Below are positions 3,484 to 32,526 of a stretch of DNA of 64,000 bases, one piece after another; position 1 is the first letter of the stretch; each line of letters begins with the position of its first letter. Location: the sequence record NC_048205.1; one strand, 5' to 3'. Both the position numbers and the translations under genes were made by a program. This DNA is from Escherichia phage vB_Eco_mar004NP2. The notes under the pieces are model-generated. The model did no database searches and had not been told where the DNA came from. It saw only the letters and a program-made list of their open reading frames with translations.

Positions 3484-6247
3484 CTAGCTCTGCCATTGCT
3501 TCATCATGCATATGTTTCTCCTCATCAGTCATAAACTTATAAGGAATTGGCATACACTCGATTTTACAATAGGTTCTGTACCAGTCTACAATATTTTCAG
3601 TGTTCATATCCTTACCAATACCCATCATACCAAGATACATTCTAGCATATTTTGGGTTAGCACTCTGACCTGTTTTAAGGAAGAAGTCCTTCTTCTTACC
3701 TTTCAGAGCTTCTATGAATGGTTTGATAGTGACGTTTGAACACTTCTTAATATCTTCCCAAAACATCTCGTGCATTTTATGGAAGAATGCCGCTCGATCA
3801 TTAGGTTTATCCTTGATATATTGTTCAACATGCTCAACTGTTACATCTTTAATAGACTCAAGATGATAATAGCGAACAAGAAGTAGTTTAGCTTCATACG
3901 CATCCGCATGACGTGGAGCACAATAATCAGGAGTTGAATGTAGAATAGCTTTGATTCGCTCTTCCATATATTCTTTCCCTGCACCTTCAATAGTTCCCCA
4001 GCTTTCGCTGAAAATATCAATAGTTGCACCCTGATCAAGCAAGTAATAACGTAAAGTACTAGTATAATTTCTAGATTCCAGCTCTCTACGACGTGCATAT
4101 AATTGCTGTGCTAACTCCAGCCAGCCCTCATCAATATTATATTGTTCAGAACCTGCAGAGAATCCACTCGTAGATTTATCAATAAAATAATAGATATTCT
4201 GAGCACCACGGTCGCGCCTGATTGCTTGAAAACGCATGTTTGGAGCTTGGTTACTGGTTCTAGTAATAACGAATACGTTATCAAAATAGTTAAAGTCAAC
4301 TCCACTCGTTACGGATGGACTACATAATAAGCAATCAATTTGTTGATCAATCAGCTCATTAGTTGTGTAATCCAGAATACGTCTAATATCCACATCAGAC
4401 GTAGAATTTGAGTGGATTTCCTTAACTAACGCACCCGTATTACGACGTAATGCCATACCCTTCTCATTCAGCTCATCAGGGCCACAATCAGATACCAGAA
4501 TAGATTTCTCACCCATCTCTAGAGAAGTCTGAAGTGCAACCCAAATACTGGATTCATCAGGAAACTCATAAGCATGAGCTTTTGACAGCATTTTACGGTG
4601 ATGATTATAAAATGCAACCGGTTTATCAAACTCGATCAAAGAACCATATGCTTCAATTGTTTCTGCACTAATATCACCATCTGATAATATAATGATTTTT
4701 GCAGTTGCAAGAATATCCCGAAGAACCTGAATACATTCACGACGTTGTTTAACAACCGGGGCGAATAATAGGTCGTTCATTACTGCATCACATTCATCGA
4801 TAAAGATTGCATCAATTTGACCAATAAAACTCTTGAACTTATGCAAAGAGTGAATAGTTGTGGACATACGGTCAATAGCACCACGCTTAAAATTAAGCAT
4901 ATCTACAGACTTATCATATTGTCCTGCACTAAATTTCTTAGCATTGGAAGATACCAGTGCTCGAGTATTGGTAATTGCTAAGAAATTACCTTTAATAACT
5001 CCTGAATCTAACCAACGCACAACCGCTGTAGTTTTACCTGTACCTAGACTCGCTTTTACAAAAGTCATATAACCTTCTGGTGGCACAGTATTTAATTTCA
5101 AGAAGTTATCAGTCTCTAAAGAGTTAGTTTCTAGCTTTTTGAGTGGAATACCTTTTAAAACATCCGGTATATCACGTTTAGAATTATTAACAAATGCTTT
5201 TAGAGCCTGTTTACGACCATTATTAAAGTAGTCTTGAATATTACGACTATTATCTTTAGTTGCAATATATTCTGATAAGGCTGGACGGATTTCTTTTTCT
5301 AGCCATGCAAAATCAACACCATCCTCTAAAGCCCTGTGATAGAGTTTAGGAATAATACGTAGATACACTCCATCCTCAGCTTCTTCTAGTTCGCTGATGG
5401 TTTCTTCTACTTTATCAGAGGCAGCTTTTTTACCCTTAATTTGGTCGAGTAAAGAGTAGAACTCTTCTTTAAACTCACCTCTAGTTGTTTCATAGTCAAC
5501 CAGATTATTGGGTAAATTTACTTTAGAACCCTTAACAAATACCAGACGTGAAGCACCCTCCGCTTTAAACGGATCTACTATACCATCGGTAAATAACGGA
5601 TCTGCAAAATAATGGAGCTGTACGGAAGAGTAATAAGCTAAGTCGGCAATATCAAAGCCATACTTTTGTCTACTACTTTCGTTGATAGATGTAAATAAGA
5701 ATTTGATTTGACCCTGAGTTACTTTAACATTAGATTCTAGTATTAAGTGCATTCGGATACCTGGTTTTAGCCCAGCCGAAGACGATGCATGAGCGATAAA
5801 CCCTGCATCAAGAGGAAACATATCCTCACTAATACTATTTAACATTCTAATAATATGTCGAGCCATGCCAACAAGATCAAACTTGTTACAACCACCTGTA
5901 TCTACAATACCATCCACATCCATTGCAATTATATGACTTGGGTTAGATACATTAAAGTTGCCCTTCTTACGTCGCACATTATTTTTAGGTGCAAGACATC
6001 GACCTCGTACCGCAACGATATGAGGGTCAGACGTTAAACGTCTCATAAGAGGAAGCATTTCTACTAGGGTTTGAGGATCAACTTCGTCAATTACATCAAA
6101 CTTGAAGGGCATTGAAGCTGGTTTACCTTCAGGATGCTTTGAGGAAAATCTTTTAGCAAAAAGATAATCTTCTGCTTTAACTTCTCGCCAATTGCCTGTG
6201 GCTAAATCGCGATGAAATCCTGCATGACCTTGTAGGATTGAAAACAC
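3458..6247 (-). CDS. putative replication primase/helicase (P-loop NTPase)
   Basis: Walker A GTGKTT, DECD Walker B-like, helicase-like motifs; track ORF extends to 6325 (TTG) but GTG at 6247 has AGGAG RBS 7 nt upstream. Confidence 0.6.
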   Translation of the reverse strand: MFSILQGHAGFHRDLATGNWREVKAEDYLFAKRFSSKHPEGKPASMPFKFDVIDEVDPQTLVEMLPLMRRLTSDPHIVAVRGRCLAPKNNVRRKKGNFNVSNPSHIIAMDVDGIVDTGGCNKFDLVGMARHIIRMLNSISEDMFPLDAGFIAHASSSAGLKPGIRMHLILESNVKVTQGQIKFLFTSINESSRQKYGFDIADLAYYSSVQLHYFADPLFTDGIVDPFKAEGASRLVFVKGSKVNLPNNLVDYETTRGEFKEEFYSLLDQIKGKKAASDKVEETISELEEAEDGVYLRIIPKLYHRALEDGVDFAWLEKEIRPALSEYIATKDNSRNIQDYFNNGRKQALKAFVNNSKRDIPDVLKGIPLKKLETNSLETDNFLKLNTVPPEGYMTFVKASLGTGKTTAVVRWLDSGVIKGNFLAITNTRALVSSNAKKFSAGQYDKSVDMLNFKRGAIDRMSTTIHSLHKFKSFIGQIDAIFIDECDAVMNDLLFAPVVKQRRECIQVLRDILATAKIIILSDGDISAETIEAYGSLIEFDKPVAFYNHHRKMLSKAHAYEFPDESSIWVALQTSLEMGEKSILVSDCGPDELNEKGMALRRNTGALVKEIHSNSTSDVDIRRILDYTTNELIDQQIDCLLCSPSVTSGVDFNYFDNVFVITRTSNQAPNMRFQAIRRDRGAQNIYYFIDKSTSGFSAGSEQYNIDEGWLELAQQLYARRRELESRNYTSTLRYYLLDQGATIDIFSESWGTIEGAGKEYMEERIKAILHSTPDYCAPRHADAYEAKLLLVRYYHLESIKDVTVEHVEQYIKDKPNDRAAFFHKMHEMFWEDIKKCSNVTIKPFIEALKGKKKDFFLKTGQSANPKYARMYLGMMGIGKDMNTENIVDWYRTYCKIECMPIPYKFMTDEEKHMHDEAMAELGARNDSEE

Positions 6248-9809: not shown

Positions 9810-11684
9810 TTATTTAGCTCGAATATCCTGATGTTTCACCCTGCCCATAACCTCGTGCTGTTTACCAGGGTTAAATGGACGAGCACCTGGATTTCCAAGA
9901 TACCCACAAACTCGGCGAGTTACTTCAAGAGTTTCGGGATCATGATTACCACAGATAGGGCACTTAAACCCATCTTCGGATGCTACTGTTTCACCTAAGA
10001 ATCCACATTTACCGCAAGAATCCACTGGAGTATTAATACCGAAGTAATGAACTTTACTAGCAGCATAATTAATAACCCATTCCAGTGCATCTGGGAATCG
10101 TTTCATATCTGGTAGTTCTACATAGGAAATGCACCCACCAGAAGCAATAGGCGTAAAGTTAGATTCATAATCAAATTTCACATTGGGAGCAACCTTACGT
10201 TCTACATCAAGGTGGTGCGAGTTAGTGTAGTATCCTTTAGACAGAATATCTTCATGCTCCGGGAAATATTCGCGGTCTAGACGACAAAAACGGTCACATA
10301 GGGATTCTGATGGTGTAGCATACAGGCTATAACCTAACTTAGTTTCTTCCTTCTTCTGATCGACTCTATCCCGCATGTACTGCAATACACGCTGAACAAA
10401 CTTGATGCAGGTCTCGGACATTGTGTCTACATCTTTGCCAAACATGAACTGTAGCATTTCATGGCAACCAATATACCCTAGAGATACAGAAGCACGGTTA
10501 TAGAAATGATCGAATACATATTCATCAGGCTCCAAGCGCAGTCCAAAGGCTCCTGACATATAGAGGATGGGCGCAGCTTTAGCTTGGATGTATTTTAAGC
10601 GATCAACTCTCCACTCCAATGCTTTTAACGCTGTATCCACACGTAGCTCAAGCAAATCAAAGAATAGGTCAATATTTCCTTCAGCTTCGATAGCAATTCT
10701 AGGCAAGTTTACAGAAACAACACCTAAGTTATTACGACCGGCAGTTTCACCATCTTCTGTAGCAGCTAGGAATGAACGGCAGCCCATAGAAACTTTATAG
10801 TCTCCAGTAACTTCCACAACCTTATCATAGCTGATATAATCTGGATACATACGTTCAGCAGTACATTTCATAGCTAACTTCTTGATGTCATAATTAACAT
10901 CTCCTGGTTTCATGTTAACGCCATCACGGAGTACAAATACCAGTTTCGGGAAGATAGCTGTACGCTTATTGATACCTAAACCATCCATGCGTACTTTCAG
11001 TATTGCTTTCTGTACTAGACGTGCTTCCCAAGAAGTTCCTAGACCAAAACCAAAGGTAATAAACGGACTCTGACCATTAGAGTTGAACATGGTATTGATT
11101 TCATATTCTAAACCCTGACAAGCGTCATAGACTTCTTTTTCAGTCATCTCCGTAGCCATTACGGATGCTTTGGCTTCATCCTTAGTCCAACGTTTTGCAA
11201 ACGCATGATTTTTGTCATAGGATTTACGAACATAAGGTGCTAATACTTCATCAAGGCGATCTACAGAAGTACCACCATACTGATGGGAGCTAACTTGAGT
11301 GATAATCTGAGCAGTGATAGCCGCCGCAGTAGTGATAGAGTTTGGAGTGCTAATTTCAGCATTACCAACCTTCATACCATTCTTCAACATATCTTCCAGA
11401 GCTACCAGGCAACAGTTAGTCATGCCTAATGCAGCATAATCAGCATCATGGAAATGAATATCCCCAATCATATGAGCATTTCGAATCTGAATTGGCATTT
11501 CTTCTAGAATCAGATACTTACTCAATTCACCTGCAAGCATATCCCTTTGTGTAGGGAAACGTTCTGAGGGTTTATTGGCATTATTAAACAGCAGCTCTTC
11601 ATCTGCTGACCCTTCGATAATCTCTTTGCAGTTTCTAATTAACGCCTGCATTTCTTTATACTTTAGTTCTTCATTGCGATTCAT
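9810..11684 (-). CDS. nrdD: anaerobic ribonucleoside-triphosphate reductase
   Basis: 624 aa; C-terminal glycyl-radical motif RVCGYLG and Cys cluster CGKCG...CPICG; RBS AAGGAG. Confidence 0.9.
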   Translation of the reverse strand: MNRNEELKYKEMQALIRNCKEIIEGSADEELLFNNANKPSERFPTQRDMLAGELSKYLILEEMPIQIRNAHMIGDIHFHDADYAALGMTNCCLVALEDMLKNGMKVGNAEISTPNSITTAAAITAQIITQVSSHQYGGTSVDRLDEVLAPYVRKSYDKNHAFAKRWTKDEAKASVMATEMTEKEVYDACQGLEYEINTMFNSNGQSPFITFGFGLGTSWEARLVQKAILKVRMDGLGINKRTAIFPKLVFVLRDGVNMKPGDVNYDIKKLAMKCTAERMYPDYISYDKVVEVTGDYKVSMGCRSFLAATEDGETAGRNNLGVVSVNLPRIAIEAEGNIDLFFDLLELRVDTALKALEWRVDRLKYIQAKAAPILYMSGAFGLRLEPDEYVFDHFYNRASVSLGYIGCHEMLQFMFGKDVDTMSETCIKFVQRVLQYMRDRVDQKKEETKLGYSLYATPSESLCDRFCRLDREYFPEHEDILSKGYYTNSHHLDVERKVAPNVKFDYESNFTPIASGGCISYVELPDMKRFPDALEWVINYAASKVHYFGINTPVDSCGKCGFLGETVASEDGFKCPICGNHDPETLEVTRRVCGYLGNPGARPFNPGKQHEVMGRVKHQDIRAK

Positions 11685-24558: not shown

Positions 24559-24630
24559 GCCGTCCTAGTATAATTGGTATTATCAAGCCGTAACTGGTGG
24601 AAGATGTAGGTTCGAATCCTACGGTCGGTA
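24559..24630 (+). pseudogene. tRNA-like element lacking a foldable anticodon arm (possible tRNA pseudogene)
   Basis: Acceptor-like pairing GCCGTCC/GGTCGGT and perfect T-arm GTAGG-TTCGAAT-CCTAC but no anticodon stem; no CCA. Confidence 0.3.
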
Positions 24631-25132
24631 AGAACTGGATAACTGATGCTTTTAACGTAAAAGCTTCCGAGGTTAGTTGCGCACTGCCTAAACCACGCGG
24701 TAGTTGGTTCCAGACTAACCAACCAGTCTGCTGAATAGTTTTATTACGATTTAACTATGCCCAGGCTAAAGAAGAACTTTAGAAGGTATTCTAGGGTAGT
24801 GAAGTTCTTTCTCCATATCGGAGTAGTTTTTCAAGCTATCCACAAAGTGGGAAATGCTGACATGAGAGATGTCACTAATGGTGCACAATAGCACAGGTAA
24901 TTCGCGATAACTCCTGTTGAGTAGCAGCAAAAGGTGGGAAGTCATGACCCCAAGCCTAACCGAGTCCTCAATATACCGCAGGACATAACCACTAAGTCAC
25001 CCTGACTTAAACTGGAAAATAATAGACGTTACCGTATTTTGTCTTGAAATACTTAATGAGTGAGACTTATGACTCTCCCGGTATCGTCTGTATTTTTAAG
25101 AGTTTTTACGAGAGTTCTTAAAAATACTTAAA

Positions 25133-26811: not shown

Positions 26812-26826
26812 ATATTTATAAATTCG

Positions 26827-26914
26827 GAAGAATAGCATAACGGTATTGCAGCAGATTGCTAATCTGTCGGTTTGAAATATAGCCTTGTGGGTTCGATTCC
26901 CACTTCTTCCGCCA
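26827..26914 (+). tRNA. tRNA-Ser (anticodon GCT), type II
   Basis: Acceptor GGAAGAA/TTCTTCC, AC loop TTGCTAA, long variable arm, CCA encoded. Confidence 0.7.
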
Positions 26915-26920
26915 AATTCT

Positions 26921-26998
26921 GGTTCTCAAGCTCATATGGTATGAGCACCCGGCTCATAACCGGAAGGTACGTAGGTTCGAATCCTCGGGGAGCCACCA
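26921..26998 (+). tRNA. tRNA with CAT anticodon (Met, fMet or Ile2)
   Basis: AC loop CTCATAA; acceptor with two G-U pairs; T-stem imperfect. Confidence 0.5.
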
Positions 26999-27214
26999 AC
27001 TTAATTAGGGGATTACAAGTGGAATTATACATAGTTTATGTTGTGTTTATTCAAGATAGAGAATACCCTGATGAATATAAAAAAGGATATAGGTTAGCCA
27101 GAGCTACTTCTGAAGCCCAAGCTATGGATAAAGTGGCAGATTATATGCTTACAGTAGAAAACGTACACTACATCGACTACCTTGAAGCCTCAAAAGTAAT
27201 TGACTAAACTACAC

Positions 27215-27291
27215 GGGGGTGTAATCGAATTGGCATAGGTACTGGACTTAAAATTCAGGTTTTGTGGGTTCGAATCCCACCACCCCTACCA
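27215..27291 (+). tRNA. tRNA-Leu-like, anticodon TAA, type-I length
   Basis: AC stem CTGGA/TTCAG, loop CTTAAAA; Leu-type D-arm (3 bp stem, GAATTGGCATA loop); 5-nt variable loop; A73; CCA. Confidence 0.5.
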
Positions 27292-27466
27292 AATTAAGGA
27301 AATAAGATGTATAGACACCCACCTCCGCCAACACGTCGTTCTAGAGAAGTTATCCTCATGGAATTGACTAAAAACTTCAAGGCAACTCTTGAGGATAGAG
27401 ATTTAGGCACGGATGAAGACATTGATTTTATTTGTAGACTATTAAAGATGAAACTGGAGAAACAAC

Positions 27467-27673
27467 ATGGCTAATCCTGAAATTACCATGCAACGATTCA
27501 TGGCTAAAGGCATGATAGCTGAGGCAGGAATTGAACAAGAAGTAAAAAGTTATTACGAACAGATTAAGGGTATTGTAGACTCGGCTAAAAACACCGGAGA
27601 AAAAGAACATGGTGCGGCAATTATGGCTATAACTCTTATTAGTCTAGACTTGGCCGAAGAATCTGGAGTTTAG
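27467..27673 (+). CDS. hypothetical protein
   Basis: ORF with GGAG RBS. Confidence 0.5.
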   Translation: MANPEITMQRFMAKGMIAEAGIEQEVKSYYEQIKGIVDSAKNTGEKEHGAAIMAITLISLDLAEESGV

Positions 27674-27703
27674 CTCCTCCAAACAGAATTTTTAAAAATG
27701 TAC

Positions 27704-27733
27704 TTGCCTTTTGCCTTAAATTTCTGATATAAT
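27704..27733 (+). promoter_or_regulatory. T5-type early promoter
   Basis: -35 TTGCCT / 18 bp / -10 TATAAT. Confidence 0.5.
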
Positions 27734-27763
27734 AATTATATAAATTGATGGAGGAGTTAACGA

Positions 27764-28039
27764 ATGCAAAATCGTGTTGTAGCAACTGGTATTGAAAGTG
27801 CAATCTGTAAATCCTGGGAAGGCTGGGAAGGTGAGATTGAATGGCTTTATTTCTATGATGTAGAACTTCTACCGGAAGTTAAAGCTAAATGTATTGAAGC
27901 TGGCATGGCTCCAGATGCAAAAGCTGATATTGATATTTTAATGTCTGAACTTAAAGGTCGTGTAGTTACCGTTAGTAATGAGGGCGAAGAAGTTTTCGAA
28001 CTTCCGTTTTCCTTAACTGTCACTCCTAAGTTCGACTAA
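27764..28039 (+). CDS. hypothetical protein
   Basis: ORF with GGAGGAG RBS and promoter. Confidence 0.6.
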   Translation: MQNRVVATGIESAICKSWEGWEGEIEWLYFYDVELLPEVKAKCIEAGMAPDAKADIDILMSELKGRVVTVSNEGEEVFELPFSLTVTPKFD

Positions 28040-28075
28040 CTAATACAGCACTGAGCAAGTTCTTTAAAATTTGAC

Positions 28076-28104
28076 TTGCTCAGTGCCTTAAAACTTGATA
28101 TAAT
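28076..28104 (+). promoter_or_regulatory. T5-type promoter driving the tRNA-Tyr/Glu/Trp/Phe block
   Basis: -35 TTGCTC / 17 bp / -10 TATAAT. Confidence 0.55.
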
Positions 28105-28121
28105 AGTTATCTAATTCGGAA

Positions 28122-28170
28122 ACATATTTAAAAGTGTTTAAACTAGTATTTGAATACTTTTAAATATGTT
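28122..28170 (+). other. 15-bp-stem palindrome immediately upstream of and overlapping the tRNA-Tyr 5' end
   Basis: AACATATTTAAAAGT ... ACTTTTAAATATGTT perfect inverted repeat. Confidence 0.6.
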
Positions 28171-28258
28171 GGATTAGTATCGTAGAGGTAGCGAAGCAGA
28201 CTGTAAATCTGCCGACTCGGAAGGGTCTCGGGTGGTTCGACTCCATCATCCAACACCA
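28168..28258 (+). tRNA. tRNA-Tyr (anticodon GTA), type II
   Basis: Acceptor GTTGGAT/ATCCAAC, AC loop CTGTAAA, long variable arm, CCA. Confidence 0.7.
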
Positions 28259-28265
28259 AATTTAA

Positions 28266-28342
28266 GTCCTGTTAGACAAACTGGTAAAGTCACTACCCTT
28301 TCAAGGTAGGGTTTGCGGGTTCGATCCCCGCACAGGACCCCA
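28266..28342 (+). tRNA. tRNA-Glu (anticodon TTC)
   Basis: Acceptor GTCCTGT/ACAGGAC, AC stem CTACC/GGTAG loop CTTTCAA, T-loop TTCGATC. Confidence 0.7.
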
Positions 28343-28351
28343 ATTAATAAT

Positions 28352-28422
28352 TGGGGTACGCATAGGTTGCAAATGGGCCTCCAAAACCCATGAAAAGGTT
28401 TCGAATACCTTTACCCCTGCCA
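28352..28422 (+). tRNA. tRNA-Trp (anticodon CCA), short D-arm
   Basis: AC loop CTCCAAA, perfect T-arm AAGGT/ACCTT, 3' end CCCCTGCCA; U1-U72 mismatch and short D region. Confidence 0.5.
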
Positions 28423-28428
28423 AAATTT

Positions 28429-28503
28429 GCACCTTTAGCTGAGATGGATTAGCGCTTGCCTGAAGAGCTTGAGAGGTTCGTTCGATACGAACAGGGTGCA
28501 CCA
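28429..28503 (+). tRNA. tRNA-Phe (anticodon GAA), tentative
   Basis: Acceptor GCACCTT/AGGGTGC, D-arm GCTG/TAGC, AC loop CTGAAGA with weak stem, T-arm GTTCG/CGAAC. Confidence 0.5.
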
Positions 28504-28520
28504 AATTGAAGGAGATGCTG

Positions 28521-28790
28521 ATGCATCCTGAAAACTTCTTTATTTACTGCGCGGATAAGTCGCTGAAACGTAGAATTAACAAAGTCTATCATTATCGTGT
28601 TAGTCAACAGCCTTATGTATACGCTTTTGACGGTGATCACATTTCATTAGAACAATTATCTTGTGATTACATGATATTGAAGAACTTTGACGAGACGAAG
28701 ATCTCAAGCGTTCACAATCGACAGAATCCATTAACGTGGAAATATAAGAAAAAGAAAGGCATCAAATTCTTAAAAAATGTAGTTGCTTAG
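28521..28790 (+). CDS. hypothetical protein
   Basis: ATG 6 nt after AAGGAG; begins right after tRNA-Phe. Confidence 0.5.
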   Translation: MHPENFFIYCADKSLKRRINKVYHYRVSQQPYVYAFDGDHISLEQLSCDYMILKNFDETKISSVHNRQNPLTWKYKKKKGIKFLKNVVA

Positions 28791-28811
28791 TTTCCAAAAG
28801 TTCTGTATAAT
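28783..28811 (+). promoter_or_regulatory. T5-type early promoter
   Basis: -35 TTGCTT / 17 bp / -10 TATAAT. Confidence 0.6.
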
Positions 28812-28840
28812 AAATACATAAATTGAACTGGAGAAGCAAC

Positions 28841-29059
28841 ATGACAGAACAAGAATTGAATGAACGTAAGCTAGTAATGCTTCGCTTACTAAATATTTTC
28901 TCTGGTATGGACGGTGGTGGTGATTTCTTAAGACTTAAGGTATTTACAGAAACTGCCGAAGGTGATGCAATCTCTAGAGTTATTAGGAACATGGGAAGCC
29001 TGCTAGATGTGGCTGGAGTAGCTACTCAATACACCTTAGATAATCCTACTGGAGAATAA
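28841..29059 (+). CDS. hypothetical protein
   Basis: ATG at 28841 with GGAGAAG RBS and promoter. Confidence 0.55.
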   Translation: MTEQELNERKLVMLRLLNIFSGMDGGGDFLRLKVFTETAEGDAISRVIRNMGSLLDVAGVATQYTLDNPTGE

Positions 29060-29251
29060 ATGAGAAGATTAGTTAGATTTAAGTGTTGTAGTTCTGAACA
29101 TATTTTCACACATCTTCGTGAATTTAAAATGTGTGATTGTGGTAAATCAGGCTATGACTCTGGAAATGGGTTCTACACCCGTACTCTAGGGAACTTCAAT
29201 GATTTAGAATTTGAAGATCTCGAAAAACAAGATAAACCGACCGTTGGCTGA
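29060..29251 (+). CDS. hypothetical Cys-rich protein
   Basis: CC...CDC motif; 3' end overlaps tRNA-Cys. Confidence 0.45.
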   Translation: MRRLVRFKCCSSEHIFTHLREFKMCDCGKSGYDSGNGFYTRTLGNFNDLEFEDLEKQDKPTVG

Positions 29252-29313
29252 ATGGCTTAGGCGAAGGATTGCAAATCCTTTTTATGTGAGTTCAAATCTC
29301 ATGCGGTCGTCCA
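29238..29313 (+). tRNA. tRNA-Cys (anticodon GCA)
   Basis: AC stem AAGGA/TCCTT loop TTGCAAA; T-loop TTCAAAT; CCA; overlaps 3' end of upstream ORF. Confidence 0.7.
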
Positions 29314-29334
29314 AATTACTAAAGGAAAGAAGTA

Positions 29335-29853
29335 GTGCATACAAAAGTTTTTGATAGTTTGGTAAAGAAAGGCGTTGTTACTAACGAGCCCTTCTATATA
29401 ACCGCAGAACTAATCCAGAGATTTATGGAAGAATATATAAATCTTTCAGGAACCAATGGTAATACCAAAAAGAATACAAATACTATGTATTCGAGAAAAC
29501 TTGCTGCACTTTCCTTTATAAAGTTTAAGCAGGAAAATAAACTTCCTATTTCTGAAGGTTTTGTATACTGTATTAGTAATCCTGCATGGAAAAATCAGTA
29601 TAAAATAGGTATGAGTCAAAATCCAAAAGAGAGATTAGCTCAATATCAGACTTATTCCCCTTATAGGGATTATAAGTTAGAGCATTGGTCTTTTTGGTTT
29701 GACAAACGAAAAGGTGAAAAACTAATTCACCAGTATTTCAAAGATTTAAAAGAACATGAGTGGTTTAGTATAAATTCTAGGGATCTTAGTAAATATCTAG
29801 AACGTATTAACTCTAGTTCTGACTTATATGGTTCCTTAGCTCTAATTGGTTAG
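29335..29853 (+). CDS. T5orf172-domain protein
   Basis: 172 aa; GFVYCISNPAWKNQYKIGMSQNPKERL matches the T5orf172 family signature as recalled; GTG start after AAAGGAAAG; 3' end overlaps next tRNA. Confidence 0.6.
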   Translation: MHTKVFDSLVKKGVVTNEPFYITAELIQRFMEEYINLSGTNGNTKKNTNTMYSRKLAALSFIKFKQENKLPISEGFVYCISNPAWKNQYKIGMSQNPKERLAQYQTYSPYRDYKLEHWSFWFDKRKGEKLIHQYFKDLKEHEWFSINSRDLSKYLERINSSSDLYGSLALIG

Positions 29854-29908
29854 AGCGGCATCTTGTTAAGTTGAGGGTTGCTGGATTCGAATCCAGCAGG
29901 AACCGCCA
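29830..29908 (+). tRNA. tRNA-Asn (anticodon GTT), tentative
   Basis: Acceptor GGTTCCT/AGGAACC, D-arm GCTC/GAGC; weak AC stem; T-loop one nt longer than canonical. Confidence 0.45.
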
Positions 29909-30010
29909 AATTCTGTGTAGAGTTAAGTAAACCGGTAGCCAACCAGCTATCATTGCTGACATCGAATTCAGCCATAGATACCATTTTCGTTAATAACTGA
30001 GGAAACAAGC

Positions 30011-30196
30011 ATGTCCAAGAATGTAATTGCGCAGCTAGAAGTTCATCGTGATAGCACTATCAACAATATTGAAGTTGAGAAGAAATACATAGAAGAACTT
30101 AAACATGATATACTGGTAAGTCTCAACCGTCTTAATGTACGAAAAGAGTTTCTTAAAGAACTTAATGCAGCTATTGAAAAACTCAAAGCTGAGTAA
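30011..30196 (+). CDS. hypothetical protein
   Basis: ORF with GAGGAAA RBS. Confidence 0.5.
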   Translation: MSKNVIAQLEVHRDSTINNIEVEKKYIEELKHDILVSLNRLNVRKEFLKELNAAIEKLKAE

Positions 30197-30205
30197 ATGA
30201 ATTAT

Positions 30206-30282
30206 GCGACCGGGGCTGGCTTGGTAATGGTACTCCCCTGTCACGGGAGAGAATGTGGGTTCAAATCCCATCGGTCGCGCCA
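30206..30282 (+). tRNA. tRNA-Asp (anticodon GTC)
   Basis: Acceptor GCGACCG/CGGTCGC, AC stem CTCCC/GGGAG loop CTGTCAC, T-loop TTCAAAT. Confidence 0.75.
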
Positions 30283-30299
30283 AATAAGGTAGGTTAGCT

Positions 30300-30458
30300 A
30301 TGGAACGTAGGGAGTTTACTCCAGAAGAGATAGAGCAGATAAAAGAATCTGCTATGAAAAATGCTAGAATATCTCTGTCACTGGAAGGTATCATTATTAG
30401 TGATGTAAACTTTGAAAAAATCAAAGCCATAGCTGATGAACTGGAAAAAGTAATTTAA
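30300..30458 (+). CDS. small hypothetical protein (52 aa)
   Basis: Unlisted ORF MERREFTPEEIEQIK... with AAGGTAGG RBS between two tRNAs. Confidence 0.4.
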   Translation: MERREFTPEEIEQIKESAMKNARISLSLEGIIISDVNFEKIKAIADELEKVI

Positions 30459-30459
30459 T

Positions 30460-30535
30460 ACATCCATAGCTCAATGGTTAGAGCTACCGCCTCTTAAGCG
30501 GAGGGTTCTAGGTTCAAGTCCTAGTGGGTGTACCA
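30460..30535 (+). tRNA. tRNA-Lys (anticodon CTT)
   Basis: D-arm GCTC/GAGC, AC loop CTCTTAA, T-arm CTAGG/CCTAG. Confidence 0.6.
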
Positions 30536-30561
30536 AATTAAACTAGCACGAGAAATATGCT

Positions 30562-30909
30562 ATGATTAATGCTAAAGAAGAATTGTTACTTGCCCTAAAG
30601 AATACTAATTCTGAAGTTAAGTGTATTAAGATAGAATTCGGTTATTATGGGGATAAAGAAGTTTGGGTATTACCCGTAGGTTATACAGAAAAAGATATTG
30701 AAGATTTTCTAGATAATCTAGACTTTAAATATGATTCTGGTTTCGGCGGACAATTGCTTTATGGTAACGTATGGTTTACCGATGGAACTTGGTTAGAACG
30801 TGGTGAATATGATGGTTCTGAATGGTGGGAATATAAGACTACACCAGCAATCCCAGAAGAATGCCGAACAATTAATGGTGAAGTAGATCGTACTTTACTA
30901 TTAAATTAA
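30562..30909 (+). CDS. hypothetical protein
   Basis: 115-aa ORF, weak RBS. Confidence 0.5.
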   Translation: MINAKEELLLALKNTNSEVKCIKIEFGYYGDKEVWVLPVGYTEKDIEDFLDNLDFKYDSGFGGQLLYGNVWFTDGTWLERGEYDGSEWWEYKTTPAIPEECRTINGEVDRTLLLN

Positions 30910-31031
30910 CAAAATTTCAGTGCAGAACACGGAGCTAGCAATTCGGAAGTGCTGACTCATGATAAGCTGCCTATGTACTTGCGAAGCGGTCGTGTCCAAG
31001 ACTCGGACTCTTGCACTGAAAACAATCAAAC

Positions 31032-31152
31032 ATTCTAGCGTGGTTGATGGGGAAACCAGCTTGGCGAGGGCAGAAGCTCGTTCGATTCGAGTGAAAGAAT
31101 GGTTCTCGTAAGTCCGCACAAGTGATAACAGGTTCGAGTCCTGTCTAGAATG
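31032..31152 (+). ncRNA. 121-nt tRNA-like structured RNA (extra arms between acceptor and T-arm)
   Basis: Perfect 7-bp acceptor ATTCTAG/CTAGAAT, D-like hairpin TGGTT/AACCA, perfect T-arm ACAGG-TTCGAGT-CCTGT, internal extra hairpins. Confidence 0.3.
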
Positions 31153-31301
31153 ACACTATAAAGTTTACTTATTATGTAGGTTCCGATAGACCGGCGGGTC
31201 TATTCTAGCATTTAAGAGAGGTCTCGCAAACTTCTTTGTCAGCCGTGGGGTTGGTAGCCTCCAGGTGGCCTACACAATAAGTAAATTTATTAAAAATTCA
31301 T

Positions 31302-31330
31302 TTGCTATTCTGCTTTATTATCTGTATAAT
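31302..31330 (+). promoter_or_regulatory. T5-type early promoter
   Basis: -35 TTGCTA / 17 bp / -10 TATAAT. Confidence 0.6.
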
Positions 31331-31362
31331 ATATTTTATAAAGTGAAGAGAAGGAAAGCAAA

Positions 31363-31521
31363 ATGAAACACAAGATAGCTCAAGTTTTTATGGCATTATG
31401 GTGTATACCAATAGCTATAACAGCATTTAATCTAGATACTTTTACTATAGAAGAAAAATGTATCGGATTAGTTAGCGGTTTTAGTATGCTGGGCTTATCT
31501 TTGCTGTGGTTAAAGAAATAA
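31363..31521 (+). CDS. small hydrophobic protein (52 aa)
   Basis: Unlisted ORF MKHKIAQVFMALWCIPIAI... with strong RBS after promoter. Confidence 0.45.
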   Translation: MKHKIAQVFMALWCIPIAITAFNLDTFTIEEKCIGLVSGFSMLGLSLLWLKK

Positions 31522-31525
31522 TATT

Positions 31526-31603
31526 CTCCGTGTAGCTCAGTTTGGCCAGAGCGTTTCGTTTGGGGCGATAGGGTCGGGGGTTCAAATCCTCCCACGGAGA
31601 CCA
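31526..31603 (+). tRNA. tRNA-Pro (anticodon TGG)
   Basis: Acceptor CTCCGTG/CACGGAG, AC loop TTTGGGG, T-loop TTCAAAT. Confidence 0.7.
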
Positions 31604-31609
31604 AACAAT

Positions 31610-31687
31610 TGCGGGTTAGATCTCTGGTAGAGATCGCTAGTCTCATAAGCTAGAAAGAGGTAGGTTCGATTCCTGCACCCGCTTCCA
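31610..31687 (+). tRNA. tRNA with CAT anticodon (Met, fMet or Ile2)
   Basis: D-arm GATC/GATC, AC stem CTAGT/GCTAG loop CTCATAA; U1-U72 mismatch. Confidence 0.6.
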
Positions 31688-31707
31688 CTTTAATAGAGGA
31701 TTTCGAA

Positions 31708-31875
31708 ATGAAAGTATTTCGATTAGTAGTAAGTGACAAACGTTTAGGTAAGAATACCTCAAAATCCTTACTTGCTCATTATGGAAAAGATGATAAAGAA
31801 GTAATGGCGGAGTTTGGGATTAATCACCCTTACTTGAAAGTTCACTCTATTAAAGAAGTATATAATGGTTACTAA
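31708..31875 (+). CDS. small hypothetical protein (55 aa)
   Basis: Unlisted ORF with AGAGGA RBS between tRNAs. Confidence 0.4.
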   Translation: MKVFRLVVSDKRLGKNTSKSLLAHYGKDDKEVMAEFGINHPYLKVHSIKEVYNGY

Positions 31876-31876
31876 T

Positions 31877-31955
31877 AGATCGCTAGCTCAATAGGTTTAG
31901 TAGCATCCGACTTTTAATCGGAAGGTTCTGGGTTCGAGTCCCAGGCGATCTACCA
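31877..31955 (+). tRNA. tRNA-Lys (anticodon TTT)
   Basis: Acceptor AGATCGC/GCGATCT, AC stem TCCGA/TCGGA loop CTTTTAA, T-arm CTGGG/CCCAG. Confidence 0.75.
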
Positions 31956-31973
31956 ATTTCAAGAAAAACGCAG

Positions 31974-32002
31974 TTGCTTGATACTTAATTTCTTGTTATA
32001 AT
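31974..32002 (+). promoter_or_regulatory. T5-type early promoter followed by hairpin and untranslated segment
   Basis: -35 TTGCTT / 17 bp / -10 TATAAT. Confidence 0.6.
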
Positions 32003-32240
32003 ATTTATATAAATTGATGAGGATTTCTCCTCATCATAGTTCACTAAGGTATTAGCTCGACCTAGGACTGGCTGCCAAAAAGCACGATCCCTACGATTCG
32101 GGAGGAGTTCTAGATTAGTCCACTAGATTCAGCGGCAACTGAATAGTGTATTGGGTTTGCGAGATGACGCGGTTCCTTCCGCTCGAAGCGAAGGTGCTGT
32201 AGTTACGCCGAGCTAATAGCCTTAGTAAACTAAAGAATTT

Positions 32241-32319
32241 GGGGGATGGGTCTGCTAGGGGTGGACACCTCGCTTGCACCGAGGACATCAGAACGATTCG
32301 AATTCGTTATCCTCCACCA
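32241..32319 (+). tRNA. tRNA-Ala (anticodon TGC)
   Basis: AC stem CCTCG/CGAGG loop CTTGCAC; G3-U70 pair present; 7-nt variable loop. Confidence 0.6.
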
Positions 32320-32324
32320 AATAC

Positions 32325-32401
32325 GCGTGATTGATGGAATTGGCATACATACCGTCCTTAGAAGTCGGGTTTTGAGGGTTCGAATCCCTTGTCACGCACC
32401 A
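32325..32401 (+). tRNA. tRNA-Leu-like, anticodon TAG, type-I length
   Basis: AC loop CTTAGAA; Leu-type D-arm ATG/CAT with GAATTGGCATA loop; short variable loop; A73. Confidence 0.5.
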
Positions 32402-32526
32402 AATTTGATGGTCAGAGTAAATTAAACCTACTATCTCGGTTGAGCTGTTTTAATGGGTTCGAATCCCAGCGAGGCGTAACTGCCTGGTGTGATAGAGGCA
32501 TCATTCCACTAACATTGGAAAAACTA

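What the first reader, a model, noticed from the sequence alone, without database searches (positions are those of the whole stretch)
27215..32401. Two paralogous Leu-anticodon tRNAs with type-I (short variable arm) architecture
The tRNAs at 27215-27291 (TAA) and 32325-32401 (TAG) both have a Leu-like D-arm (3-bp stem, GAATTGGCATA loop) and an A73 discriminator, yet only a 5-nt variable loop where bacterial tRNA-Leu has a long extra arm. If functional, they are unusual Leu isoacceptors, or they may decode differently.
Basis: seen in the sequence. Interest (0 to 1): 0.55.

Follow-up and report, generated by a model that had tools for sequence, protein, structure and literature searches.

The report
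Short-armed leucine tRNAs in T5-like phage
These are two real phage tRNA genes that read leucine codons but lack the long extra arm of textbook bacterial leucine tRNAs. They are already annotated and almost certainly work as leucine tRNAs, and the same short design is common in phages.

Summary
Both genes are real. ARAGORN and Rfam call tRNAs at 27215-27291 (anticodon UAA) and 32325-32401 (UAG). Each is 77 nt with encoded CCA, a 3-bp D stem, a GAAUUGGCAUA D loop, A73 and a 5-nt variable loop GUUUU.

The window is a T5-like phage, 100% identical to Salmonella phage EH4 over the region compared. The UAG gene is identical to BF23 tRNAL1. That record's GenBank note says an anticodon-to-CUA version is an effective amber suppressor.

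Both tRNAs carry the full published E. coli leucine identity set (A73, U8:A14, A15:U48, G18G19, A20a). That set needs neither the anticodon nor the long arm. Only 1 of 165 non-Leu tRNAs matches it.

UUA and CUA are over-used in the phage and lie opposite Leu in E. coli NrdA/B/D, so there is no sign of recoding.

The short design is widespread. It occurs in FelixO1-, rV5-, N4- and T5-like phages and in at least 120 uncultivated viral contigs, with overwhelming covariation. Ser and Tyr tRNAs in the same genomes keep long arms. T5 itself has a long-armed allele at the same site.

Best reading: ordinary-function Leu isoacceptors, charged by host LeuRS, with an off-textbook architecture. The genes are known; the class is under-described.

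The parts
27215..27291 (+). tRNA-Leu(UAA), type I, 77 nt including encoded CCA. G1.U72, A73. D arm AUC-GAAUUGGCAUA-GGU. Anticodon loop CUUAAAA.
   Evidence: ARAGORN; Rfam 57.4 bits; parse; 10/10 Leu identity features; at least 95% identical copies in 323 phage records, annotated tRNA-Leu.
27249..27251 (+). Anticodon TAA (UAA), which reads UUA/UUG.
   Evidence: ARAGORN anticodon position 35; sequence.
27259..27263 (+). 5-nt variable loop GUUUU (positions 44-48), ending in U48, the partner of A15.
   Evidence: Parse; sequence.
32325..32401 (+). tRNA-Leu(UAG), type I, 77 nt including encoded CCA. G1-C72, A73. D arm AUG-GAAUUGGCAUA-CAU. Anticodon loop CUUAGAA (A37, not G37). U30.U40 mismatch in the anticodon stem.
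   Evidence: ARAGORN; Rfam 47.5 bits; 77/77 identical to BF23 tRNAL1, annotated 'effective amber suppressor' after the anticodon change; 10/10 identity features.
32359..32361 (+). Anticodon TAG (UAG), which reads CUA and other CUN codons.
   Evidence: ARAGORN; sequence.
32369..32373 (+). 5-nt variable loop GUUUU.
   Evidence: Parse; sequence.
26826..26914 (+). tRNA-Ser(GCU), 89 nt, 19-nt variable arm. Internal control: a class-II tRNA that keeps its arm.
   Evidence: ARAGORN; parse.
28168..28258 (+). tRNA-Tyr(GUA), 91 nt, 18-nt variable arm. Internal control.
   Evidence: ARAGORN; parse.
32241..32319 (+). tRNA-Ala(UGC) immediately upstream of Leu(UAG). The same Ala-Leu adjacency holds in T5 and BF23.
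   Evidence: ARAGORN; T5 and BF23 annotation; comparison.

Best explanation
These are two functional, phage-encoded leucine isoacceptor tRNAs. They are transcribed with the early tRNA cluster, processed (CCA is encoded) and charged with leucine by the host (E. coli/Salmonella) LeuRS. They are then used to read UUA/UUG (anticodon UAA) and CUA/CUN (anticodon UAG), the Leu codons the AT-rich phage over-uses relative to its host.

They can do without the long variable arm because enterobacterial LeuRS recognises A73 plus the D/T-loop elbow and core (U8:A14, A15:U48, G18G19, A20a). It does not recognise the anticodon or the arm. All of these elements are retained. SerRS depends on the arm, which is why Ser tRNAs in the same genomes keep theirs. 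Tyr tRNAs keep theirs too; bacterial TyrRS dependence on the arm is my own recollection, not shown here.

Shown: the architecture, its conservation and covariation, the identity elements, the codon meaning, the codon demand, and the GenBank note of suppressor activity for the identical BF23 gene. Inferred: that LeuRS is the charging enzyme and that leucine is the amino acid inserted.
For: 1. Real tRNAs with the stated architecture.

2. The UAG gene is 77/77 identical to BF23 tRNAL1. Its depositors' note reads 'codon recognized: CUA; replacement of the anticodon with CUA sequence converts this tRNA into effective amber suppressor'. If so, it is expressed, matured, charged independently of its anticodon, and accepted by the ribosome in E. 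coli.

3. Both genes meet all 10 features of the published E. coli Leu identity set (review PMC9976931), as do the three E. coli tRNA-Leu. Only 1 of 165 distinct non-Leu tRNAs from host and phages does.

4. The same review reports that the arm's sequence and folding do not correlate with leucylation by E. coli LeuRS, and that tRNA-Leu variants lacking the anticodon arm and long arm stay active. An arm-deleted E. coli tRNA-Leu(CAA) is modified normally by TrmL (PMC4615657).

5. The other anticodon-independent identities are excluded: no G3.U70, nt -1 is C, no long arm or G73.

6. TTA makes up 26% and CTA 19% of Leu codons in window ORFs. E. coli has roughly 13% and 4% (my memory of the Kazusa table).

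7. In NrdA/NrdB/NrdD, phage TTA lies opposite E. coli Leu in 13/26 cases and CTA in 14/26. The other four Leu codons give 42/95. Background Leu is 9%.

8. Selection on the fold across 131 viral type-I Leu genes under 90% identical: 98.1% of cells are paired, against 58% in shuffles and 34-46% when slid. All 20 pairs show double changes. The covariation score is 1.04 against at most 0.24 in controls.

9. Leu specificity: in 120 viral loci Leu has V=5 in 152 genes, while Ser has V>=14 in 80/81 and Tyr V>=10 in 38/39. [quoted passage not shown]
Against: - No aminoacylation data are available for these tRNAs.
- The BF23 note does not say which amino acid the suppressor inserts. CUA-anticodon tRNAs can be mischarged (for example by GlnRS or LysRS; my knowledge).
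- I could not find the underlying paper.
- PMC6614811 reports that E. coli LeuRS could not charge the natural type-I tRNA-Leu(CAA) of S. coelicolor, says EcLeuRS 'only charges type II', and notes contacts of its C-terminal domain with arm nucleotides 47f-47i.
- Actinobacterial type-I Leu genes picked up by my pattern also have A73 and U48. The identity signature is therefore not proven sufficient in a type-I body.
- Whole-body sequence identity does not place the two genes nearest to E. coli tRNA-Leu.
- Single-sequence MFE folds are not the cloverleaf, though the cloverleaf is only 1.5-3.8 kcal/mol above MFE.
- One record labels the UAA gene 'tRNA-Xle'.
Confidence: 0.8

Rival explanations
1. 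The function is the same (Leu isoacceptors), but the loss of the arm is adaptive rather than merely tolerated. A type-I body would let the phage Leu tRNAs escape a host or competitor factor that recognises class-II tRNA-Leu through the long arm. Candidates are a tRNA-targeting defence nuclease, a toxin, or a phage-induced activity that degrades host tRNA. This would keep translation going when host tRNA-Leu is attacked. It overlays the best explanation and is not exclusive of it.
For: - T5-family tRNAs are reported to counter tRNA-cleaving defences, as summarised in PMC10644984 and PMC10264068.
- The phage Leu anticodon loops also differ from host ones: C32 against U32, and A37 against G37 in the UAG species.
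- Type-I Leu is a long-lived lineage found in many unrelated phage groups and kept under strong purifying selection.
Against: - I found no nuclease or defence system that recognises the tRNA-Leu arm.
- T5 and about 52 relatives do well with a type-II allele at the same site.
- Several phages mix the two types.
- Chromosomal type-I Leu genes are common in Actinomycetota, which shows the design can exist without a phage-defence context.
Confidence: 0.15
2. The tRNAs are charged with an amino acid other than leucine, or are ambiguously charged. The phage would then recode or mistranslate UUR/CUN codons.
For: - The type-I body is atypical for bacterial Leu.
- One published test of EcLeuRS on a natural type-I tRNA-Leu was negative.
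- One record is annotated 'tRNA-Xle'.
- The UAA species shares A35, A36 and A73 with tRNA-Phe, and the UAG species shares U34, A35 and A73 with tRNA-Val (sequence; identity sets from my knowledge).
Against: - TTA and CTA codons align with Leu in E. coli orthologues as often as the other Leu codons do.
- Host tRNA-Leu would read the same codons, so a different charge would give mixed proteins at 4% of all codons.
- The complete Leu identity set is present and marks of other anticodon-independent identities are absent.
- The main Phe (G34) and Val (C36) determinants are missing.
Confidence: 0.04
3. They are tRNA-like RNAs with a non-translational role (decoy, primer, regulatory or processing signal), or decaying pseudogenes left after a deletion of the arm.
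For: The T5 tRNA region contains several annotated 'tRNA-like stable RNAs with unknown functions'. The window has tRNA-like elements that ARAGORN does not call.
Against: - The sequences are 100% conserved in hundreds of phage genomes.
- The acceptor, D, anticodon and T stems are intact, with compensatory covariation across 131 diverse homologues, conserved Leu anticodons, A73 in 165/173 and encoded CCA in 127/173.
- Suppressor activity is noted for the identical BF23 gene.
- The anticodons match the over-used codons.
Confidence: 0.03

Closest known systems
BF23 tRNAL1 (GenBank AJ604530, tRNA gene region of phage BF23)
   Same: It is 77/77 identical to window 32325-32401, with the same Ala-Leu adjacency and an identical downstream sequence. 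It is annotated tRNA-Leu, reading CUA, and gives an effective amber suppressor after the anticodon change.
   Different: There is no difference in the gene itself. The upstream tRNA-Ala allele differs. The record does not comment on the short variable loop or name the inserted amino acid.
T5 tRNAL1(UAG) (NC_005859 31624-31708)
   Same: Same anticodon, same position next to tRNA-Ala in the same gene cluster, A73, and a 17-nt Leu-type D arm.
   Different: It is 85 nt and type II, with a 13-nt variable arm AGCUUAAAUGCGU. It is only 58% identical over the body and is followed by the HNH endonuclease gene hegC. T5 has no Leu(UAA) gene in its tRNA region; hegA sits at that place.
E. coli K-12 tRNA-Leu (leuZ UAA, leuW UAG, leuT CAG)
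   Same: Same anticodons. Same 3-bp D stem with an 11-nt loop (GAAUUGGUAGA in the host, GAAUUGGCAUA in the phage). A14, A15:U48, G18G19, A20a and A73 are shared. G1.U72 is shared by leuZ and the phage UAA species.
   Different: The host genes have 13-15-nt variable arms. There is no detectable DNA similarity and only 56-59% body identity. The host has U32 where the phage has C32. Host UAG has G37 where the phage has A37.
Type-I tRNA-Leu(CAA) of Streptomyces coelicolor and other Actinomycetota (PMC6614811)
   Same: A natural bacterial-world tRNA-Leu with a 5-nt variable loop that coexists with type-II tRNA-Leu and a single LeuRS. My pattern finds at least 119 such loci in bacterial genomes, mostly Actinomycetota, with A73 and U48.
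   Different: These are chromosomal, GC-rich (61%) and mostly of the C13/G21 D-loop subfamily with an NCAGU loop. The window genes are G13/U21 with GUUUU. In Streptomyces, A73 is reported not to be an identity element, and E. coli LeuRS did not charge that tRNA. The phage genes must work with enterobacterial LeuRS.
Animal mitochondrial tRNA-Leu(UUR/CUN)
   Same: Type-I tRNA-Leu with A73 and A14 as identity elements.
   Different: They are charged by a dedicated mitochondrial LeuRS and have degenerate, floppy structures. The phage tRNAs have fully canonical D and T loops.
Engineered arm-less E. coli tRNA-Leu variants (Asahara 1993/1998, Tocchini-Valentini 2000 and Larkin 2002, as summarised in PMC9976931; the VLAD mutant in PMC4615657)
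   Same: A Leu-identity body without the long arm remains a substrate of E. coli LeuRS and of TrmL. The phage genes look like the natural counterpart.
   Different: These are laboratory constructs derived from host sequences. I could not read the primary kinetic data.

Membership tests
tRNA (Rfam RF00005) | Cloverleaf that scores above the family's gathering threshold, with a 7-nt anticodon loop. | tested here: met
   57.4 and 47.5 bits against 29. ARAGORN calls both. Covariation across 131 homologues: 98.1% paired, 20/20 pairs with double changes.
Bacterial (E. coli-type) tRNA-Leu | Leu anticodon (NAG or YAA). | tested here: met
   UAA and UAG.
Bacterial (E. coli-type) tRNA-Leu | Discriminator A73. 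| tested here: met
   A73 in both, and in 165/173 viral type-I Leu genes.
Bacterial (E. coli-type) tRNA-Leu | Core and elbow identity elements: U8:A14, A15:U48, G18G19 at the Leu position of a 17-nt D arm, A20a, and the U54/U55/C56/A58 T loop. | tested here: met
   10/10 features in both genes and in the three E. coli tRNA-Leu, against 1/165 non-Leu tRNAs. The feature list comes from PMC9976931.
Bacterial (E. coli-type) tRNA-Leu | Class-II architecture: a long variable arm of more than 10 nt. | tested here: not met
   V = 5 nt (GUUUU) in both, against 13-15 nt in E. coli leuW, leuZ and leuT.
Bacterial (E. coli-type) tRNA-Leu | Leucylation by the host LeuRS. | not testable with these tools
   Only indirect evidence: the suppressor note for the identical BF23 gene, codon meaning, and published tolerance of arm deletion. 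There is a contrary precedent with the Streptomyces type-I tRNA.
Type-I tRNA-Leu (the kind known from animal mitochondria and Streptomyces) | Leu anticodon combined with a 4-5-nt variable loop in an otherwise complete cloverleaf. | tested here: met
Type-I tRNA-Leu (the kind known from animal mitochondria and Streptomyces) | Coexistence with type-II tRNA-Leu and a single LeuRS in one compartment. | tested here: inconclusive
   In the infected cell the host type-II tRNA-Leu would coexist with them. No synthetase-sized ORF with a synthetase domain lies among the window's ORFs of 300 aa or more. I did not scan the whole phage genome.
tRNA-Ala, tRNA-His and tRNA-Ser (other identities that do not rely on the anticodon) | G3.U70 (Ala); G-1 (His); long arm with G73 (Ser). 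| tested here: not met
   3:70 is G-C in both, nt -1 is C in both, V = 5 and position 73 is A.

The most novel reading that the evidence does not exclude
Type-I tRNA-Leu may be a widespread, phage-propagated design whose arm loss is adaptive. It would make phage leucine decoding independent of, or invisible to, some host or rival-phage factor that reads the class-II arm. It would also show that enterobacterial LeuRS naturally charges arm-less tRNA-Leu, contrary to the published statement that E. coli LeuRS charges only type II. The type-I and type-II alleles that alternate at one site in T5-like phages, with type-II alleles next to HNH endonuclease genes, would then mark an ongoing contest.
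Probability: 0.12. Interest if true: 0.7.

Novelty: new member of a known kind. Interest (0 to 1): 0.35.

Why it matters
[quoted passage not shown] A 2019 study presents Streptomyces as the exceptional bacterial case and states that E. coli LeuRS charges only type-II tRNA-Leu.

Hundreds of sequenced phages of E. coli, Salmonella, Klebsiella, Vibrio, Aeromonas and Pseudomonas, and at least 120 uncultivated viral contigs, carry conserved arm-less Leu tRNAs that must be served by the host enzyme. This has three consequences:
- It gives a ready-made natural substrate set for asking how bacterial LeuRS handles type-I bodies.
- It gives a clean natural illustration of identity rules: the arm is lost only where the synthetase does not need it.
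- It is a caveat for isotype-model-based tRNA annotation of phage genomes.

It does not change what the genes do in this window, which is ordinary codon-supply tRNA work.

Tried and rejected
1. I ranked E. coli tRNAs of all 20 isotypes by overall identity, excluding the anticodon and variable region. This did not discriminate: values were 0.53-0.68 with Trp, His or Val on top. Only the D arm of the UAG species ranked the three host Leu genes first. I replaced it with the identity-element signature.

2. Single-sequence MFE folding does not return the cloverleaf for either gene. I relied on covariation instead.

3. blastn of the UAA gene against 5,426 E. coli genomes found only 23-nt T-arm matches on plasmids, so the genes are not a recent host capture.

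4. Literature searches for a description of phage type-I tRNA-Leu or the BF23 suppressor experiments found nothing in the held library. Larkin et al. 2002 is not held. van den Berg et al. 2023 does not mention variable arms.

5. One Aeromonas-phage 'Thr(UGU)' tRNA met the whole Leu signature and looked like an anticodon-shifted Leu body. On inspection its D arm (GCUCAAUUGGAAGCAGC) and acceptor stem (GCUGAUA) looked Thr-like to me (judged from memory of E. coli tRNA-Thr), so I treat it as the signature's one false positive.

6. My first parser gave spurious V=3 values for genes without encoded CCA. I corrected this by choosing the 3' offset that maximises acceptor and T-stem pairing.

They give lower bounds, not frequencies.

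Full report
**What is there**

ARAGORN finds 21 tRNA genes on the + strand between 25.1 and 35.0 kb of the window. Rfam's tRNA model scores them 57.4 and 47.5 bits against a threshold of 29.

Read directly, each gene is 77 nt with an encoded CCA. Each has:
- a 7-bp acceptor stem (G1.U72 in the UAA species);
- U8;
- a 3-bp D stem closing the 11-nt loop GAAUUGGCAUA;
- a 5-bp anticodon stem (one U30.U40 mismatch in the UAG species);
- a 7-nt anticodon loop;
- a 5-nt variable loop GUUUU;
- a 5-bp T stem with loop UUCGAAU;
- A73.

A strict pattern encodes a Leu-type D loop, a YAR anticodon and the spacing that allows only a 5-nt variable loop. It matches the window twice, at these genes, and never in 100 shuffles. 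The tRNA-Ser and tRNA-Tyr of the same cluster have 19- and 18-nt variable arms.

**Whose genome**

The 6.2 kb around the genes is 100% identical to Salmonella phage EH4 (Epseptimavirus, Demerecviridae) and 84-100% covered in dozens of T5-like phages.
- The UAA gene occurs at 95% identity or more in 323 phage records.
- The UAG gene occurs at 95% identity or more in 160 phage records.
- Both are nearly always annotated tRNA-Leu. One record says tRNA-Xle.
- No E. coli chromosome holds anything similar at the DNA level.

**Experimental anchor**

The UAG gene is 77/77 identical to tRNAL1 of phage BF23. The depositors of that record (AJ604530) wrote: 'codon recognized: CUA; replacement of the anticodon with CUA sequence converts this tRNA into effective amber suppressor'.

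**Is it a leucine tRNA?**

The published identity set for E. coli LeuRS consists of:
- A73;
- U8:A14;
- the A15:U48 Levitt pair;
- G18G19 and A20a in the D loop;
- the D/T-loop tertiary pairs.

I fetched E. coli K-12 tRNAs for all 20 isotypes and scored every distinct tRNA I held for ten such features. Both window genes and all three E. coli tRNA-Leu score 10/10. Only 1 of 165 non-Leu tRNAs does, and that one looks like an ordinary tRNA-Thr.

The D arm has the same length and layout as the host's (AUG-GAAUUGGCAUA-CAU against GCG-GAAUUGGUAGA-CGC). Marks of the other anticodon-independent identities are absent: 3:70 is G-C, nt -1 is C, and there is no arm or G73.

The UAA species has the A36-A37-A38 and U34 context that E. 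coli MiaA and TrmL use. TrmL modifies an arm-deleted E. coli tRNA-Leu normally (PMC4615657).

Plain percent identity to host isotypes was uninformative.

**Does it decode differently?**

In 52 window ORFs of 120 aa or more, TTA is 26% and CTA 19% of Leu codons. E. coli has about 13% and 4% (my memory of the Kazusa table). The two phage anticodons therefore match the two Leu codons the phage over-uses most.

I aligned the window's NrdA, NrdB and NrdD to the E. coli proteins (33-54% identity). The E. coli residue opposite each phage codon was:

| Phage codon | Opposite Leu in E. coli |
|---|---|
| TTA | 13/26 |
| CTA | 14/26 |
| Other four Leu codons, pooled | 42/95 |
| Background Leu frequency | 9% |

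The two codons mean leucine in this genome. A tRNA inserting anything else would compete with host tRNA-Leu at 4% of all codons.

**How general is the architecture?**

- Short Leu genes (V=5-7) occur in FelixO1 (UAG, CAA, UAA), the rV5-like phage 4MG (UAA, UAG), the N4-like Pseudomonas phage ZC08 (UAA), the Vibrio phage JSF10 (UAG), an Aeromonas phage (three genes) and others. Every Ser and Tyr tRNA in those genomes keeps V=13-22.
- The strict pattern saturates the IMG/VR scan at 120 contigs. In those loci Leu has V=5 in 152 genes, Ser has V>=14 in 80/81 and Tyr V>=10 in 38/39. Of 173 distinct type-I Leu genes, 165 have A73, 165 have U48 and 127 encode CCA.
- On 131 sequences under 90% identical, the type-I cloverleaf is 98.1% paired, against 58.3% in shuffles and 34-46% when slid. 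All 20 pairs show compensatory double changes. The covariation score is 1.04 against at most 0.24 in any control.
- Type-I genes are closest to other type-I genes (mean best identity 0.80 against 0.68 to any type II). Type II genes are closest to type II despite being outnumbered five to one. Type I is therefore an established lineage, with two main D-loop subfamilies: C13/G21, and G13/U21, which is the window's.
- The same pattern also saturates the bacterial genome scan. Hits are mostly single chromosomal genes in Actinomycetota. This fits the one bacterial case in the literature, S. coelicolor tRNA-Leu(CAA) (PMC6614811).

**Variation within the T5 family**

T5 itself has, next to tRNA-Ala, an 85-nt type-II tRNA-Leu(UAG) with a 13-nt arm, followed by the HNH gene hegC. 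It has no Leu(UAA) gene in its tRNA region; hegA lies where the window has it, and the flanking ORFs match in length.

The T5 allele is found at 95% identity or more in 52 records, against 160 for the type-I allele. Some phages combine a type-II UAG with a type-I UAA gene, or the reverse. Both designs evidently work in the same hosts.

**Mechanism and its weak point**

The simplest account is that the arm is dispensable for enterobacterial LeuRS and so can be lost. [quoted passage not shown] Bacterial TyrRS also uses the arm, though that is my recollection and is not shown here.

The inferred steps are LeuRS charging and leucine insertion. Against them stands one published negative result. E. 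coli LeuRS did not charge the S. coelicolor type-I tRNA-Leu, and the authors say it charges only type II and contacts arm nucleotides 47f-47i. Actinobacterial type-I genes share A73 and U48, so my signature is not proven sufficient.

I still put 0.8 on the ordinary-function reading. My reasons are the suppressor note, the codon evidence, the conservation, and the published tolerance of arm deletion in E. coli tRNA-Leu. Whether arm loss is merely tolerated or is selected (for example to evade something that reads the arm) cannot be decided here. I give the adaptive overlay about 0.15.

**Novelty**

- The genes are known. They are annotated in hundreds of records and functionally noted for BF23 since the AJ604530 deposit.
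- Type-I tRNA-Leu as a kind is known from animal mitochondria and Streptomyces.
- I could not find, in the searchable literature, any recognition that phages of enterobacteria and many other viruses carry a conserved type-I tRNA-Leu family. A 2023 reference review states that tRNA-Leu has a long arm everywhere except animal mitochondria.
- I therefore file this as a new (under-described) member of a known kind, of modest interest. Older T5/BF23 papers that I could not access may already describe it.

Noticed in passing
window 26921-26998, 29830-29908, 24559-24633: Rfam calls three further tRNA-like elements that ARAGORN misses. The first has a CAU anticodon and CCA, in the position of T5 tRNA-Ile2(CAU); EH4's annotated hypothetical CDS at 26941-27207 overlaps it. 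The second has a GUU anticodon and CCA (tRNA-Asn). The third lacks CCA and lies upstream of tRNA-Arg, where T5 annotates stable 'RNAX'.
   Followed up: partly
window 32241-32319: The tRNA-Ala(UGC) next to Leu(UAG) is an odd 79-nt gene. ARAGORN calls it but it is absent from the Rfam gathering-threshold list. It does have G3.U70. The window, BF23 and T5 each carry a different Ala allele here (49-54 identical columns of 76-85), although the Leu gene and its downstream sequence are identical between the window and BF23. This indicates mosaic exchange inside the tRNA cluster.
   Followed up: partly
L002 (T5) 5023-5709 and 10380-11063; L008 2070-2612: The type-II Leu alleles sit beside HNH endonuclease genes: hegC after T5 Leu(UAG), and an HNH CDS overlapping the type-II Leu(UAA) of phage SG_WM_SEW_6S. 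T5 hegA occupies the place where the window has its type-I Leu(UAA). Homing endonucleases may drive allele replacement at these sites.
   Followed up: no
window 32354/32364 (positions 30:40) and 32362 (position 37): The UAG species has a U.U mismatch in the anticodon stem, seen in only 2 of 131 diverse homologues. It has A37 where host tRNA-Leu(UAG) has G37 (the m1G37 site). Among viral type-I UAG genes, 41 have A37 and 22 have G37. Both window genes have C32 where the host has U32.
   Followed up: partly
window 27215/27287 (pair 1:72): The UAA species has a G1.U72 wobble, as does host leuZ. G.U at 1:72 occurs in 55 of 131 diverse viral type-I Leu genes. This is unusually frequent for the first pair of the acceptor stem, which E. 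coli LeuRS is reported to contact.
   Followed up: partly
window 32455-32467: A T-arm-like fragment GGGTTCGAATCCC lies about 55 nt downstream of Leu(UAG), identical in BF23. Neither tool calls it as a tRNA. It may be a tRNA remnant.
   Followed up: no
L009 (Aeromonas phage AhP_Mru1) 801-879 and 2895-2971: The record annotates a 'suppressor tRNA' in the cluster. A tRNA-Thr(UGU) there fortuitously meets the whole Leu identity signature. On inspection its D arm and acceptor stem looked Thr-like to me, judged from memory of E. coli tRNA-Thr.
   Followed up: partly
L142-L261 (bacterial genome contigs): Type-I tRNA-Leu genes matching the pattern are abundant in Actinomycetota, mostly as single chromosomal genes, with UAA the commonest anticodon among 145 distinct genes. 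Seventeen loci hold 5-35 tRNAs within 8 kb (tRNA arrays or prophages), including loci from Planctomycetota and Acidobacteriota.
   Followed up: partly
H69, Salmonella phage OSY-STA MN187969 18506-18581: A copy of the UAA gene, identical over the 76 of 77 nt matched, is annotated 'tRNA-Xle' (Leu or Ile). This suggests that an isotype-model-based pipeline is unsure about the type-I body.
   Followed up: no
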